Part shown: positions 8,580-10,012 of the stretch, in pieces | Position numbering within the stretch: the first letter of the stretch is position 1 | How the letters are laid out: every line of letters begins with the position of its first letter | NCBI RefSeq assembly: GCF_030013205.1 | Contig: NZ_CP122648.1 | Source of the DNA: Escherichia coli | Lineage (GTDB): Bacteria; Pseudomonadota; Gammaproteobacteria; Enterobacterales; Enterobacteriaceae | Length of the DNA stretch: 64,000 bases | Direction: 5' to 3' (one strand) | Program-made: the position numbers and the translations under genes | The notes under the pieces: model-generated | What the model was told of the DNA's origin: nothing | The model's database searches: none | Seen by the model: only the letters and a program-made list of their open reading frames with translations

Positions 8580-8771
8580 ATGCTTGGTAAGGTATTTTTT
8601 GTGGTTTTGTCATGTTCTTTGTTATTAAACCCACTAACTACCTATGCTAGAAATTATCCCTGTTCAGGGAAAAAGGGAGGTGTTTCTCACTGTACCTCAG
8701 ATGGCAAATTCGTTTGCAATGATGGAACTATTAGTAAATCCAAAAAAATCTGTACTAAAAACTCACGATAA
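8580..8771 (+). CDS. Small secreted Cys-rich protein (63 aa), cargo gene in the cI-int operon
   Basis: Strong GGGAGG ribosome-binding site 6 nt upstream; N-terminal signal-peptide-like hydrophobic segment followed by a Lys/Cys-rich mature region. Confidence 0.5.
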
Positions 8772-8959
8772 CTTTTGCTTTTATATCTGCGCCTAAAATA
8801 AAAATGAGCCGCAGGTTAACCGCAAAAGTTACATGCTCACATAGCAAAAAGAATAGCCAACTTAATTATGGCTTCAGTGAGATGTATGGTCGTAGGATTT
8901 CATACATTGACACTGGTTATACATACAGTGAAAATGCTCTCTACTGGAGGGCATTTTTT

Positions 8960-10012
8960 ATGGCAGTACGAAAACTCACCACAGGGAAATGGCTTTGCGA
9001 ATGTTACCCCGCCGGACGTAATGGGCGTCGTGTGCGTAAACAATTCGCCACCAAAGGCGAAGCACTGGCCTTCGAGCGATACACCATGGGGGAAATAGAA
9101 GCAAAGCCCTGGCTGGGCGAATCAGTGGATCGTCGGACACTGAAAGATATGGTTGAGCTATGGTTCAAATTACATGGCAAATCTCTTACTGCCGGACAGA
9201 ATGTCTACAACAAGCTGCTGTTGATGGTTGACGCCTTGGGAAATCCCCTTGCAACTGATCTCACCTCAAAAATGTTTGCTCACTATCGCGATAAACGCCT
9301 TACTGGTGAAATCTACTTCAGTGAAAAATGGAAGAAAGGAGCAAGCCCAGTTACTGTTAACCTGGAGCAAAGCCATCTAAGCAGCGTTTTCAGAGAACTT
9401 TCCCGCCTGGGTGAATGGACACTTCCAAACCCATTAGAGAAGATGCGCAAATTCACTATCGCAGAAAAGGAAATGGCATGGCTTACACATGAGCAGATTA
9501 TCGAATTACTGTCTGACTGCAAACGTCAGAACCCAATTCTGGCACTGGTAGTCAAGATATGCCTAAGCACAGGCGCACGCTGGCGAGAAGCAATAAATCT
9601 TACCCGCTCACAGGTGACCAAATACCGAATTACCTTTGTAAGAACGAAGGGGAAGAAAAACAGGAGCATCCCTATCAGTAAAGAGCTTTACGAAGAGATC
9701 ATGGCGCTTGATGGGTTCAATTTCTTTACAGACTGCTATTTTCAATTTTTATCCGTGATGGAAAAAACGTCTATCGTGCTCCCTCGCGGTCAACTGACAC
9801 ACGTTCTGCGCCATACGTTTGCGGCGCATTTCATGATGTCGGGTGGAAATATCCTTGCTTTGCAAAAAATCCTCGGACATCACGATATAAAAATGACTAT
9901 GCGTTACGCACATCTGGCACCGGATCATCTGGAAACGGCGCTCCGTTTCAATCCTCTGGCAACGCTGCCAAGTGGCGACAAAGTGGCGGCAGCGGTTGGC
10001 ATTACCCCGTAA
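8960..10012 (+). CDS. int: Tyrosine integrase (P2/186 family)
   Basis: ORF 8804-10012; start set at internal Met (MAVRKLTTGKWLCECYPAGRNGRRVRKQF...) typical of P2-family integrases; C-terminal HxxR...Y catalytic region (LRHTFA...MRYAHL). Confidence 0.85.
   Translation: MAVRKLTTGKWLCECYPAGRNGRRVRKQFATKGEALAFERYTMGEIEAKPWLGESVDRRTLKDMVELWFKLHGKSLTAGQNVYNKLLLMVDALGNPLATDLTSKMFAHYRDKRLTGEIYFSEKWKKGASPVTVNLEQSHLSSVFRELSRLGEWTLPNPLEKMRKFTIAEKEMAWLTHEQIIELLSDCKRQNPILALVVKICLSTGARWREAINLTRSQVTKYRITFVRTKGKKNRSIPISKELYEEIMALDGFNFFTDCYFQFLSVMEKTSIVLPRGQLTHVLRHTFAAHFMMSGGNILALQKILGHHDIKMTMRYAHLAPDHLETALRFNPLATLPSGDKVAAAVGITP

What the first reader, a model, noticed from the sequence alone, without database searches (positions are those of the whole stretch)
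8580..8771. Small secreted Cys-rich protein encoded between cI and int (lysogen-expressed cargo)
A 63-aa ORF with a strong GGGAGG ribosome-binding site, a signal-peptide-like N-terminus and a Lys/Cys-rich mature region lies inside the repressor-integrase operon, so it would be expressed in the lysogenic state. This position is a classic place for lysogenic-conversion or superinfection-exclusion genes, and I do not recognise this protein as a known family.
Basis: partly seen in the sequence, partly recalled or inferred. Interest (0 to 1): 0.55.

Follow-up and report, generated by a model that had tools for sequence, protein, structure and literature searches.

The report
Prophage YdcA-family small periplasmic protein
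The small ORF between the prophage repressor and integrase genes is a real, strongly conserved gene for an exported, disulfide-rich mini-protein of the already named but functionally uncharacterised YdcA family, and it probably acts in the periplasm on DNA or on envelope-crossing machinery.

Summary
Window 8580-8771(+) is a 63-aa ORF starting 15 nt after the cI stop. It has a GGGAGG Shine-Dalgarno, a Sec/SPase-I signal peptide (cut after TYA23) and a 40-aa mature part with net charge +7 and 4 Cys.

The claim that it belongs to no known family is wrong. It scores above the curated cutoff of NCBIfam NF007463, matches phrog_6000, and its 98%-identical cluster representative carries Pfam PF27300 (YdcA). 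RefSeq already calls this exact locus "YdcA family protein".

It is under strong purifying selection and occurs in 627 of 5426 complete E. coli genomes, including BL21. Diverged copies sit directly after 186-type cI in Klebsiella, Hafnia and Yersinia prophages. Haemophilus phages HP2/S2 have one too, unannotated.

The cI-int gap is a variable cargo slot that elsewhere holds defence genes, and in Vibrio phage K139 holds the periplasmic exclusion protein Glo.

No function is known. Family-wide, the domain is fused or adjacent to secreted nucleases, sits in T6SS clusters, and resembles the lobes of Legionella Dis2.

My best guess is a lysogen-expressed periplasmic binder of DNA or envelope machinery that excludes incoming DNA. 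The identity is certain; the mechanism is inferred.

The parts
7648..7869 (-). apl/cox-like excisionase-repressor gene, first gene of the divergent lytic operon
   Evidence: phrog_575 'Cox-like excisionase and repressor', E 6e-31
7942..7970 (-). pR-like sigma-70 promoter candidate (TTGACG-17-TATGTT) reading towards apl. It sits in the position of 186 pR, next to the cI start.
   Evidence: Consensus scan; position compared with the 186 annotation. Consensus match only.
7995..8564 (+). cI, 186-type immunity repressor (189 aa from the RefSeq start)
   Evidence: phrog_4/phrog_34054. RefSeq 'phage repressor protein CI' WP_001047320.1. Homologues carry PF07022+PF16452.
8568..8573 (+). Shine-Dalgarno GGGAGG of the small gene, 5 nt before the ATG
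   Evidence: Read directly. Diverged homologues also have AAGGAG-type SDs 5-7 nt upstream.
8580..8648 (+). Signal-peptide coding part (residues 1-23, [23 protein letters not shown]), predicted SPase I cleavage after A23
   Evidence: Rule-based analysis. A at -1 in 32/33 homologues. This segment evolves fast (dN 0.65-1.26) while staying hydrophobic.
8649..8771 (+). Mature YdcA domain (40 aa, 4 invariant Cys, net +7) plus stop codon
   Evidence: NF007463 above cutoff; phrog_6000. Invariant P27 C28 S29 K32 G33 G34 C38 F44 C46 D48 G49 S52 S54 K55 C58. dN 0.03-0.09 with saturated dS. AF2 pLDDT 77.8.
8769..8831 (+). Long imperfect hairpin starting at the stop codon, with no U-run on the + strand
   Evidence: RNA fold of 8760-8965: MFE -62 kcal/mol, z -5.2 against shuffles. 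Function unknown.
8907..8935 (+). Promoter-like site TTGACA-17-GAAAAT upstream of int, in a block conserved in all related prophages whatever cargo precedes it
   Evidence: Scan; alignment of 7 int-upstream regions. Homology to Klebsiella/E. coli phage int modules starts at about 8882-8902.
8931..8959 (+). Hairpin (12 bp, loop ACU) that sequesters the int SD (GGAGGG) and ends in a U-run directly before the int ATG; a candidate attenuator/terminator
   Evidence: Fold. Other prophages keep a hairpin here with a different stem sequence (AGCCCTCA...TGAGGGCT) followed by T-run+ATG.
8960..10012 (+). int, tyrosine integrase (350 aa). The prophage end and the host gene rcdA follow.
   Evidence: RefSeq coordinates; phrog_1; 90-92% nt identity to Klebsiella/E. 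coli P2-like phage integrases.

Best explanation
The ORF is a genuine prophage gene for a YdcA-family protein (Pfam PF27300, NCBIfam NF007463).

Shown:
- It has the family's signal peptide and its invariant motif PCSGxKGG..C..F[VI]CxDG[ST]xSxSK..C.
- It is under strong purifying selection.
- It is widespread.
- It keeps the same position, directly after a 186-type cI, in prophages from Escherichia to Haemophilus.

Inferred, with good support:
- It is transcribed with cI from the lysogenic promoters and translated from its own strong SD.
- It is exported by Sec and cut after Ala23.
- It folds in the periplasm into a 40-residue, very basic mini-domain held by two disulfides.
- It is accessory cargo in a variable cI-int slot, not part of the lysis-lysogeny switch. 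Phage 186 and SopEPhi lack it, and other relatives carry defence genes there.

Inferred, weaker (mechanism):
- The YdcA domain is an extracytoplasmic binding module for DNA/polyanions or for the outer-membrane-proximal parts of envelope-crossing machines.
- In other bacteria the domain is fused or adjacent to secreted nucleases of several unrelated families, sits in T6SS clusters, and resembles the lobes of the T4SS outer-membrane-cap protein Dis2.
- In the lysogen the free domain most likely interferes with DNA that enters through the periplasm, from superinfecting phage or other foreign DNA. It could do this by binding the DNA, by exposing it to periplasmic nuclease, or by obstructing the injecting device.
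- This would make it a positional and functional analogue of K139 Glo.
For: Identity:
- NF007463 115.8 bits against cutoff 93; phrog_6000 E 2e-34.
- The 98%-identical cluster representative and 57 other homologues carry PF27300, named YdcA.
- RefSeq annotates it as 'YdcA family protein'.
- It is 51% identical to K-12 YdcA.

Reality and selection:
- dN/dS 0.025 against the BL21 copy.
- Mature-domain dN 0.03-0.09 with saturated dS, while the adjacent cI has dN 0.2-0.75.
- Present in 627/5426 complete E. coli genomes, in at least 525 IMG/VR contigs and on at least 1000 contigs with the exact sequence.

Synteny:
- cI-ydcA-(0-1 cargo gene)-int in Escherichia, Klebsiella, Hafnia, Yersinia and Buttiauxella; the Spirabiliibacterium locus L138 also has cI, ydcA and int, but with about 850 nt between cI and ydcA.
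- In Haemophilus phage HP2 (locus read) the ydcA ATG overlaps the cI stop and the ORF is unannotated; phage S2 has a match at the same coordinates.

Operon context:
- 186 annotation of pL/pE driving cI-int-orf69.
- No + strand terminator-like site between cI and the gene.
- A conserved SD-sequestering hairpin with U-run lies only before int.

Export: signal-peptide features; no lipobox.

Slot nature:
- PD-Lambda-1, PDC-S20 and PDC-S21 genes in or beside the slot in relatives.
- K139 glo 'periplasmic protein; involved in phage exclusion' lies between cI and int.

Domain function clues:
- Fusions to SNase (2 clusters), Endonuclease_NS (1) and PLD/NucT (1).
- ydcA is immediately followed by a secreted SNase gene in Brucella and Shinella (loci L112 and L172 read). 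BLAST also finds SNase-like ORFs beside ydcA in a second Shinella (L155) and, about 540 nt downstream, in Trabulsiella.
- A 133-aa YdcA protein lies next to a membrane-anchored T5orf172 protein inside T6SS clusters of 11-12 enterobacterial species.

Closest solved structure:
- By both sequence profile (E 8e-5) and Foldseek (top hit, prob 0.87-0.89) it is Dis2/Lpg0823 of the Dot/Icm T4SS outer-membrane cap.
- A Dis2 homologue carries PF27300.
Against: - No experiment on any YdcA-family protein shows DNA binding, envelope binding or phage exclusion.
- YdcA matches no PADLOC defence model.
- Most family members are chromosomal rather than phage-borne: only about 9 of the 80 best species loci have the cI-ydcA-int arrangement. 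A general host-physiology role is therefore plausible. In E. coli W, deletion of ydcA gave 3-hydroxypropionate sensitivity, and the gene is said to be acid-induced (PMC7642389).
- The nuclease fusions are 4 of about 150 inspected clusters. They could mean anchoring, a pro-domain or an inhibitor rather than DNA binding.
- Expression in lysogens is inferred from position only.
- The prophage in this window is defective.
Confidence: 0.45

Rival explanations
1. Host-fitness (lysogenic-conversion) factor. The periplasmic YdcA peptide improves envelope or acid/organic-acid stress tolerance of the lysogen, like the chromosomal paralogue, and has nothing to do with incoming DNA or phage.
For: - Most family members are chromosomal and not in prophages.
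- E. coli W delta-ydcA is sensitive to 300 mM 3-hydroxypropionate, and ydcA is reported as acid-induced via YdcI (PMC7642389).
- An RpoS-holoenzyme SELEX site lies in the rydC/ydcA intergenic region (PMC5493296).
- The gene is retained intact in defective prophages such as this one and the one in E. coli B.
Against: - The stress phenotype is a single growth curve in one study, with no mechanism.
- It does not explain the repeated fusion or adjacency to secreted nucleases, or the T6SS/T4SS association.
- It does not explain the strict cI-proximal position in a slot otherwise filled by anti-phage genes.
Confidence: 0.25
2. Envelope-machine or envelope-anchor module. The domain binds outer-membrane-proximal proteins, peptidoglycan or LPS, as Dis2 does in the Dot/Icm cap. 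The prophage copy blocks penetration by contractile tails, tailocins or T6SS spikes rather than binding DNA.
For: - Dis2 contacts DotK, DotC and DotD next to the outer membrane (bioRxiv 10.1101/2021.06.18.449039; PMC12716638).
- YdcA proteins are encoded inside T6SS clusters beside tssE/tssJ.
- The phages that carry the gene after cI are contractile-tailed Peduoviridae.
- Nuclease fusions could be anchoring rather than substrate binding.
Against: - The homology to Dis2 is only borderline.
- Dis2 is dispensable and its role is unknown.
- Stand-alone ydcA-SNase operons in Alphaproteobacteria, with no secretion machine nearby, fit a nucleic-acid role better.
Confidence: 0.15
3. Periplasmic nuclease regulator. 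The domain is an inhibitor or pro-domain/chaperone of extracytoplasmic nucleases, and the prophage copy modulates host endonuclease I.
For: - Fusion at the N-terminus of three nuclease families and adjacency to SNase genes.
- Own knowledge: secreted nucleases are often made with N-terminal pro-peptides or paired inhibitors (staphylococcal nuclease pro-form; NucA/NuiA).
Against: - Known nuclease inhibitors are acidic DNA mimics or tight, specific partners. This domain is strongly basic (median net +6).
- It accompanies four unrelated nuclease folds, which argues for binding the shared substrate rather than the enzymes.
Confidence: 0.07
4. Secreted cationic, disulfide-rich antimicrobial peptide (bacteriocin-like) released on lysis or in vesicles to harm competitors.
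For: The mature peptide is 40 aa, net +7, with 4 Cys, superficially like defensin-type peptides.
Against: - Only a Sec signal is present, so the product stays in the periplasm of a Gram-negative cell.
- No immunity or export genes are nearby.
- The family occurs as domains of larger periplasmic proteins.
Confidence: 0.04
5. Chance ORF, or a lipoprotein anchored through Cys12.
For: A 63-aa ORF arises in 5.3% of shuffles of the gap. The signal region contains ...VLSC....
Against: - Strong purifying selection and deep conservation.
- Curated family match.
- No lipobox match. Cys12 is not conserved, and in relatives it is preceded by F, I or V.
Confidence: 0.01

Closest known systems
E. coli K-12 YdcA (b1419) and the YdcA family (Pfam PF27300; NCBIfam NF007462/NF007463/NF007464; phrog_6000)
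   Same: - Same family: signal peptide with an AxA site, and the invariant PCSGxKGG..C..FVCNDG[ST]xSxSK..C core with 4 Cys.
- 51% identity overall and 70% over the mature domain.
- The ORF scores above the curated cutoff of NF007463.
   Different: - K-12 ydcA is a chromosomal gene between rydC and hokB. The window gene is prophage cargo directly after cI, and it falls in a different NCBIfam equivalog (68.5 bits against cutoff 118 for the K-12 model NF007462).
- Neither has a known function (bioRxiv 10.1101/2024.02.12.579971).
Vibrio phage K139 Glo
   Same: - Same genomic logic. Glo is a Sec-exported small periplasmic protein encoded between cI and int in the PL lysogenic operon of a P2-family phage.
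- It is annotated as involved in phage exclusion.
- The cI-int gap of K139-like phages is a described hotspot (PMC9122126).
   Different: No sequence relationship: hhalign probability is 1.9% and only the signal peptides align. Glo is 137 aa and not Cys-rich or basic.
Legionella pneumophila Dis2 (Lpg0823), outer-membrane-cap component of the Dot/Icm T4SS (PDB 7MUC/7MUD chain AN)
   Same: - It is the only solved structure retrieved, and it is retrieved by both the sequence profile and Foldseek.
- Motif CxxKxGG[IV]xxC...G.xVCN[DN]Gxx S.
- Disulfide-pinned lobes, N-terminal hydrophobic segment followed by AFA, periplasmic location near the outer membrane.
- A Dis2 homologue carries PF27300.
   Different: - Dis2 has two lobes and five disulfides, is not basic, and is a structural, dispensable subunit of a secretion machine.
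Phage T4 Sp (spackle) and Imm; lambdoid Cor/Llp-type exclusion proteins (own knowledge)
   Same: These are phage-encoded envelope or periplasmic proteins that stop superinfecting phage at the DNA-entry step. This is the kind of function proposed here.
   Different: - No sequence or fold relationship was found or tested.
- T4 Sp is made by a lytic phage and inhibits the gp5 lysozyme.
- Cor and Llp are lipoproteins that block FhuA.
- YdcA has no lipobox.

Membership tests
YdcA family (NCBIfam NF007463 / Pfam PF27300 / phrog_6000) | Whole-protein HMM score above the curated NCBIfam cutoff | tested here: met
   NF007463: 115.8 bits against cutoff 93, residues 5-63 on profile 1-58/58. phrog_6000: E 1.9e-34, full length.
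YdcA family (NCBIfam NF007463 / Pfam PF27300 / phrog_6000) | Match to Pfam PF27300 (YdcA) | tested here: inconclusive
   - The local Pfam-A copy lacks PF27300 and gave no hit.
- The 98%-identical cluster representative P0001 and 57 other homologues carry a precomputed PF27300 hit. The family name YdcA is shown.
- So this feature is met indirectly.
YdcA family (NCBIfam NF007463 / Pfam PF27300 / phrog_6000) | N-terminal Sec signal peptide with an AxA-type SPase I site | tested here: met
   Rule-based: K4, 12-residue hydrophobic core, T-Y-A at -3..-1. A at -1 in 32/33 aligned members. No SignalP was available.
YdcA family (NCBIfam NF007463 / Pfam PF27300 / phrog_6000) | Four invariant Cys and the PCSGxKGG / F[VI]CxDG[ST]xSxSK core | tested here: met
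   All 15 invariant columns of the 33-sequence alignment are present in the window protein.
Bacterial lipoprotein | Lipobox [LVI][ASTVI][GAS]C at the end of a signal peptide of at least about 15 residues | tested here: not met
   No regex match. Cys12 is too early, and in relatives it is preceded by F, I or V, or is absent.
Known or candidate anti-phage defence systems (PADLOC-DB 2.0) | Match to any PADLOC protein model | tested here: not met
   0 families for the ORF. Neighbouring-slot genes of relatives hit PD-Lambda-1, PDC-S20 and PDC-S21.
K139 Glo-type periplasmic exclusion protein | Sequence homology to Glo | tested here: not met
   hhalign probability 1.9%.
K139 Glo-type periplasmic exclusion protein | Encoded between cI and int in the lysogenic operon of a P2-family phage, with a Sec signal | tested here: met
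   This is a positional analogy only.
K139 Glo-type periplasmic exclusion protein | Reduces plating or DNA entry of superinfecting phage | not testable with these tools
   Needs plaque, adsorption and DNA-entry assays.
Dis2 (Lpg0823)-like disulfide-pinned lobe | Significant sequence or structure similarity to the solved Dis2 lobes | tested here: inconclusive
   - Profile with signal peptide E 8.1e-5; mature-only profile E 0.089.
- Foldseek top two hits, prob 0.87-0.89, TMq 0.58-0.64, 38% identity.
- hhalign 52% probability, E 1.4e-4 over 21 columns of an N-terminally truncated homologue.
- Dis2 homologue P0228 carries PF27300.

The most novel reading that the evidence does not exclude
The YdcA domain is a previously unrecognised extracytoplasmic DNA-binding or nuclease-partner module. 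The cI-linked prophage copy is a new type of periplasmic barrier to incoming DNA (superinfecting phage, possibly transformation or conjugation). It is co-expressed with the repressor and conserved from E. coli 186-like prophages to Haemophilus HP2. It shares ancestry with the lobes of the 'Legionella-specific' T4SS cap protein Dis2 and with an accessory protein of enterobacterial T6SS clusters.
Probability: 0.25. Interest if true: 0.65.

Novelty: already known. Interest (0 to 1): 0.35.

Why it matters
The gene itself is catalogued, so the finding is not a discovery of a new family. It still matters, for these reasons:

- It is one of the most conserved and widespread prophage cargo genes with no known function. 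About 12% of complete E. coli genomes carry it, including the laboratory workhorse BL21.
- It sits in the transcript that is active in every lysogen.
- It belongs to a Proteobacteria-wide mini-domain that keeps turning up next to secreted nucleases and inside T6SS and T4SS contexts.
- A 40-residue peptide that can be made synthetically, plus strains that naturally carry or lack the gene, make the exclusion and DNA-binding hypotheses cheap to test.
- A positive result would add a new periplasmic layer to prophage-encoded defence.
- It would also give a first functional handle on K-12 YdcA, on the T6SS-cluster YdcA proteins and on Dis2.

Tried and rejected
- Local Pfam-A scan of the ORF: no significant hit, because PF27300 is newer than the local library.
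- PADLOC: nothing.
- Lipoprotein reading: rejected.
- Homology to K139 Glo: rejected.
- 'Conjugal transfer protein', the name UniRef gives the cluster: no supporting evidence found.
- The plasmid gene called ydcA is an unrelated methylase. The gonococcal-island ydcA was not compared here; it shares the name only as far as this work shows.
- phmmer of a tandem-repeat member (P0080) against PDB did not recover Dis2; it gave only chance protease hits.
- A 27-aa Dis2 fragment was too short for the protein search.
- Nesper et al. 1999 (PMC93736) is not held, so the Glo function is cited from the GenBank annotation only.
- Literature searches for ydcA, PF27300, PRK10040, b1419, WP accessions and phrog_6000 found no functional study.
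- The IMG/VR scan returned only identical copies among the best 80 and so added little context diversity.
- ORF length as evidence was rejected as weak (5.3% of shuffles).
- A remembered resemblance to DUF3761 was not supported by the Pfam scan and was dropped.
Full report
**What is there**

The window is E. coli chromosome carrying one end of a 186/P2-type prophage integrated next to rcdA (ybjK). Reading rightwards the genes are:

| Coordinates | Strand | Feature |
|---|---|---|
| 7199-7621 | - | truncated cII |
| 7648-7869 | - | apl/cox-like gene |
| 7995-8564 | + | 186-type cI repressor |
| 8580-8771 | + | the flagged ORF |
| 8772-8959 | + | 188-nt spacer |
| 8960-10012 | + | tyrosine integrase |

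The host genes rcdA, ybjJ and ybjI follow.

It has an ATG preceded by GGGAGG at a 5-nt spacing, and it begins 15 nt after the cI stop. It encodes 63 codons:
- an N-terminal signal peptide with K4, a 12-residue hydrophobic core and T-Y-A at -3..-1;
- a 40-residue mature part with pI 9.7, nine K+R against two D+E, and four Cys.

There is no lipobox.

RefSeq and the phrog_1 alignment both place the start at 8960.

**Is it more than chance?**

Length alone is not convincing, because 5.3% of shuffles of the 395-nt gap contain an ORF this long. Conservation settles it.
- The exact protein is on at least 1000 contigs.
- The DNA is in 627 of 5426 complete E. coli genomes. The same number of genomes match at least 80% of the whole 2.2-kb cI-ydcA-int query.
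- At least 525 IMG/VR viral contigs encode a relative.
- Against the E. coli B/BL21 copy there are 10 synonymous and 1 non-synonymous differences (dN/dS 0.025).
- Against copies in other Escherichia, Klebsiella, Hafnia and Yersinia prophages, synonymous sites are saturated while the mature domain has dN of only 0.03-0.09.
- The signal peptide evolves freely (dN 0.65-1.26) but stays hydrophobic, as signal peptides do.
- The neighbouring cI is far less conserved (dN 0.2-0.75).

**What it is**

It is a member of the YdcA family.
- It scores 115.8 bits on NCBIfam NF007463 (curated cutoff 93) and E 2e-34 on phrog_6000.
- Its 98%-identical cluster representative and nearly all homologues carry Pfam PF27300, named YdcA.
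- RefSeq annotates this very locus as 'YdcA family protein' WP_000900883.1, or 'hypothetical protein' in older annotation runs.
- The local Pfam copy lacks PF27300, which explains the empty scan.
- It is 51% identical to E. coli K-12 YdcA (b1419), a 57-aa protein described as having a signal sequence and unknown function.
- Fifteen positions are invariant in 33 diverse members: P27 C28 S29 K32 G33 G34 C38 F44 C46 D48 G49 S52 S54 K55 C58.

The function really is unknown. The literature holds one deletion phenotype (3-hydroxypropionate sensitivity in E. coli W), a claim of acid induction via YdcI, an RpoS SELEX site and some transcriptome mentions.

**Position and likely expression**

In phage 186 the annotated lysogenic operon is cI-int-orf69, transcribed from pL (maintenance) and pE (establishment). 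There cI abuts int. Here the small gene is inserted between them.

No terminator-like site lies on the + strand between cI and the gene.

The spacer after the gene is strongly structured (z -5.2).
- It starts with a long hairpin at the stop codon (8769-8831).
- It ends with a 12-bp hairpin (8931-8957) that buries the int Shine-Dalgarno and runs into a U-tract just before the int ATG.

The roughly 70 nt before int are conserved in all related prophages whatever cargo precedes them. That block includes a TTGACA-17-GAAAAT promoter-like site. The hairpin is kept with a different stem sequence in the other prophages.

I infer that the small gene is co-expressed with cI in lysogens, while int is separately throttled. 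This has not been measured.

The prophage in this window is defective. cII is truncated and joined to tail-gene remnants, and the replication, head and lysis genes are gone. The immunity region is intact.

**The slot**

The cI-int gap varies among related phages:
- nothing in 186 and SopEPhi;
- a PD-Lambda-1 defence gene in vB_EcoM-813R9;
- an unknown 349-aa gene in Klebsiella phage 4LV2017;
- ydcA plus a PDC-S20 KAP NTPase in other Escherichia and Klebsiella prophages;
- ydcA plus an unknown 347-aa gene in Hafnia;
- ydcA alone in Yersinia.

In those enterobacterial loci ydcA is the gene immediately after cI, even where cI is only 32-33% identical to the one here. In the Pasteurellaceae locus L138 about 850 nt separate cI and ydcA.

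In Haemophilus phage HP2 a 60-aa YdcA homologue starts on the cI stop codon (TAATG) and is not annotated in the record; phage S2 has a match at the same coordinates. HP1 has no match.

In Vibrio phage K139 the same gap holds orf2 and glo. Glo is annotated as a periplasmic protein involved in phage exclusion. Rousset et al. describe this gap as a defence hotspot in K139-like phages. Glo is not homologous to YdcA.

**What the family tells us**

A profile of the mature domain finds 335 clusters at 50% identity (180 at E <= 1e-10) in 1.84 billion representatives. A pattern scan finds relatives in 328 of about 100,000 species genomes. These span Enterobacterales, Pasteurellaceae, Moraxellaceae, Neisseriaceae, Burkholderiales, Xanthomonadales and Alphaproteobacteria.

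Only about 9 of the best 80 species loci have the cI-ydcA-int arrangement. The phage gene is therefore an offshoot of a mostly chromosomal family.

The domain occurs alone, in tandem (2-3 copies), and with C-terminal extensions. Four observations bear on function.

1. It is fused, after a signal peptide, to three unrelated secreted nuclease families: SNase (2 clusters), Endonuclease_NS and PLD/NucT. One SNase fusion lies in a P2-like prophage beside gpD/gpU.
2. A stand-alone ydcA is immediately followed by a signal-peptide-bearing SNase gene in Brucella and Shinella (loci L112 and L172 read). BLAST finds SNase-like ORFs at the same place in a second Shinella (L155) and about 540 nt downstream in Trabulsiella.
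3. In 11-12 enterobacterial species a 133-aa YdcA protein is encoded inside a T6SS cluster (tssM-tssA-...[22 protein letters not shown]5orf172-VasL). It sits next to a membrane-anchored protein with a T5orf172/MUG113 domain, which from my own knowledge is GIY-YIG-related.
4. The only solved structure retrieved is chain AN of the Legionella Dot/Icm T4SS outer-membrane cap.
   - It was found independently by a sequence profile (E 8e-5 with the signal peptide, 0.089 for the mature part) and by Foldseek on an AF2 model of pLDDT 77.8 (top two hits, prob 0.87-0.89, 38% identity).
   - A Dis2 homologue carries a PF27300 hit.
   - I regard the Dis2 link as probable but unproven.

**How it most likely works**

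*Shown.* A conserved, selected, Sec-signal-bearing YdcA-family gene sits in the cI-proximal position of a variable cargo slot.

*Inferred with good support.* It is transcribed with cI, exported, cleaved after Ala23 and oxidised to a two-disulfide basic mini-domain in the periplasm. It is accessory, not part of the switch.

*Inferred weakly.* The recurrent partnership with four nuclease folds points to the shared substrate. The domain would then be an extracytoplasmic DNA/polyanion-binding module. The T6SS and Dis2 contexts suggest it can also dock on envelope-crossing machines. In a lysogen the free domain would meet foreign DNA or the injecting device in the periplasm and hinder entry. This would be a functional analogue of K139 Glo and, more loosely, of T4 Sp/Imm (own knowledge).

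I give this composite explanation 0.45. The identity part is near certain and the exclusion mechanism stands at roughly 0.25.

*Rivals.*
- A host stress-fitness factor like the chromosomal paralogue (0.25).
- A pure envelope-machine or anchor binder that blocks contractile devices (0.15).
- A nuclease regulator or pro-domain (0.07).
- An antimicrobial peptide (0.04).
- A chance ORF or lipoprotein (0.01).

**Novelty and verdict**

The feature is real and correctly described. It is already catalogued: a named family, with the exact protein in RefSeq. I found no discussion of the following in the searchable literature:
- the conserved cI-linked position across Enterobacterales and Pasteurellaceae phages;
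- the missing annotation in HP2/S2;
- the nuclease and T6SS associations of the domain;
- the probable kinship with Dis2.

These make the gene a cheap and reasonable experimental target, and it is present in BL21. They do not make it a new kind of system. Interest 0.35.

Noticed in passing
[not shown]
   Followed up: yes
PDB 7MUC/7MUD chain AN (Legionella Dis2/Lpg0823); proteins P0228, P0229: - Dis2 is described in the literature as Legionella-specific with no structural homologue. It looks like a tandem of YdcA-like lobes, and a homologue carries PF27300.
- Its 'predicted transmembrane helix 21-38' aligns with the YdcA signal peptide and ends in AFA just before the first modelled residue (G40). 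It is probably a cleaved signal peptide.
   Followed up: partly
L188 10001-10399, and L123-L143 (Salmonella arizonae, Pluralibacter, Pantoea, Huaxiibacter, Dryocola, Citrobacter and others): A 133-aa YdcA-domain protein with a conserved C-terminal motif (PTCAPLYMAxKPGYTHLPICSGNQY) is a conserved gene of a T6SS cluster. It lies between tssE and a membrane-anchored T5orf172/MUG113 protein and a VasL-type protein. Its role is unknown.
   Followed up: partly
P0128, P0205, P0217, P0199; L112 4932-5616; L172 4935-5581; L155 (BLAST only); L132 4935-6340 (BLAST only): - The YdcA domain is fused to SNase, Endonuclease_NS and PLD/NucT nucleases.
- In Brucella (L112) and Shinella (L172) a stand-alone ydcA is followed at once by a secreted SNase gene.
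- In Trabulsiella (L132) an SNase-like ORF lies about 540 nt downstream of ydcA.
- In L155 only a BLAST hit was seen.
   Followed up: partly
window 8907-8959: The block upstream of int is conserved in all related prophages. It contains a promoter-like TTGACA-17-GAAAAT, an inverted repeat ACTG..ACAGT, and a hairpin that sequesters the int SD and ends in a U-run. The stem sequence differs between prophages but the hairpin is kept. This is a likely attenuator or translational control of int.
   Followed up: partly
window 8769-8831: A long imperfect hairpin starts at the ydcA stop codon. The 8760-8965 region folds with z -5.2 against shuffles. There is no U-run on the + strand, and a terminator-like reading exists on the minus strand (8825-8809).
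   Followed up: no
window 5653-6588 (+): An FRG-domain protein (311 aa; phrog_4962; PADLOC candidate PDC-S15) is inserted on the opposite strand between baseplate gene V and tail-completion gene S. It is a second cargo gene in an unusual place inside the tail operon.
   Followed up: partly
window ~7045-7621: The prophage is defective. cII is truncated and joined to a tail-protein (gpR-like) remnant next to gpS. The replication, head, lysis and cos regions are deleted. RefSeq also flags a truncated tape-measure gene and a frameshifted gpI upstream.
   Followed up: partly
window 1-1002 (from L004 4047-5102): An acyltransferase-family gene lies on the opposite strand between the tail sheath and tail-fibre-assembly genes. 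This is the P2 Z/fun cargo position, so it is a possible O-antigen/LPS modifier. The window starts inside this gene.
   Followed up: no
window 8200-8900: GC content falls to 33-37% across the C-terminal half of cI, ydcA and the spacer, against 45-52% on both sides. This fits a horizontally exchanged immunity-plus-cargo module distinct from the int module. Homology to Klebsiella phage int modules starts only at about 8882-8902.
   Followed up: partly
L009 (E. coli BL21, NZ_CP053601 844164-844355): E. coli B/BL21 carries the same cI-ydcA-int arrangement at the rcdA site (94.5% nt identity, 1 amino-acid difference) in its own defective P2-like prophage. A standard laboratory strain is therefore a natural test bed.
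   Followed up: partly
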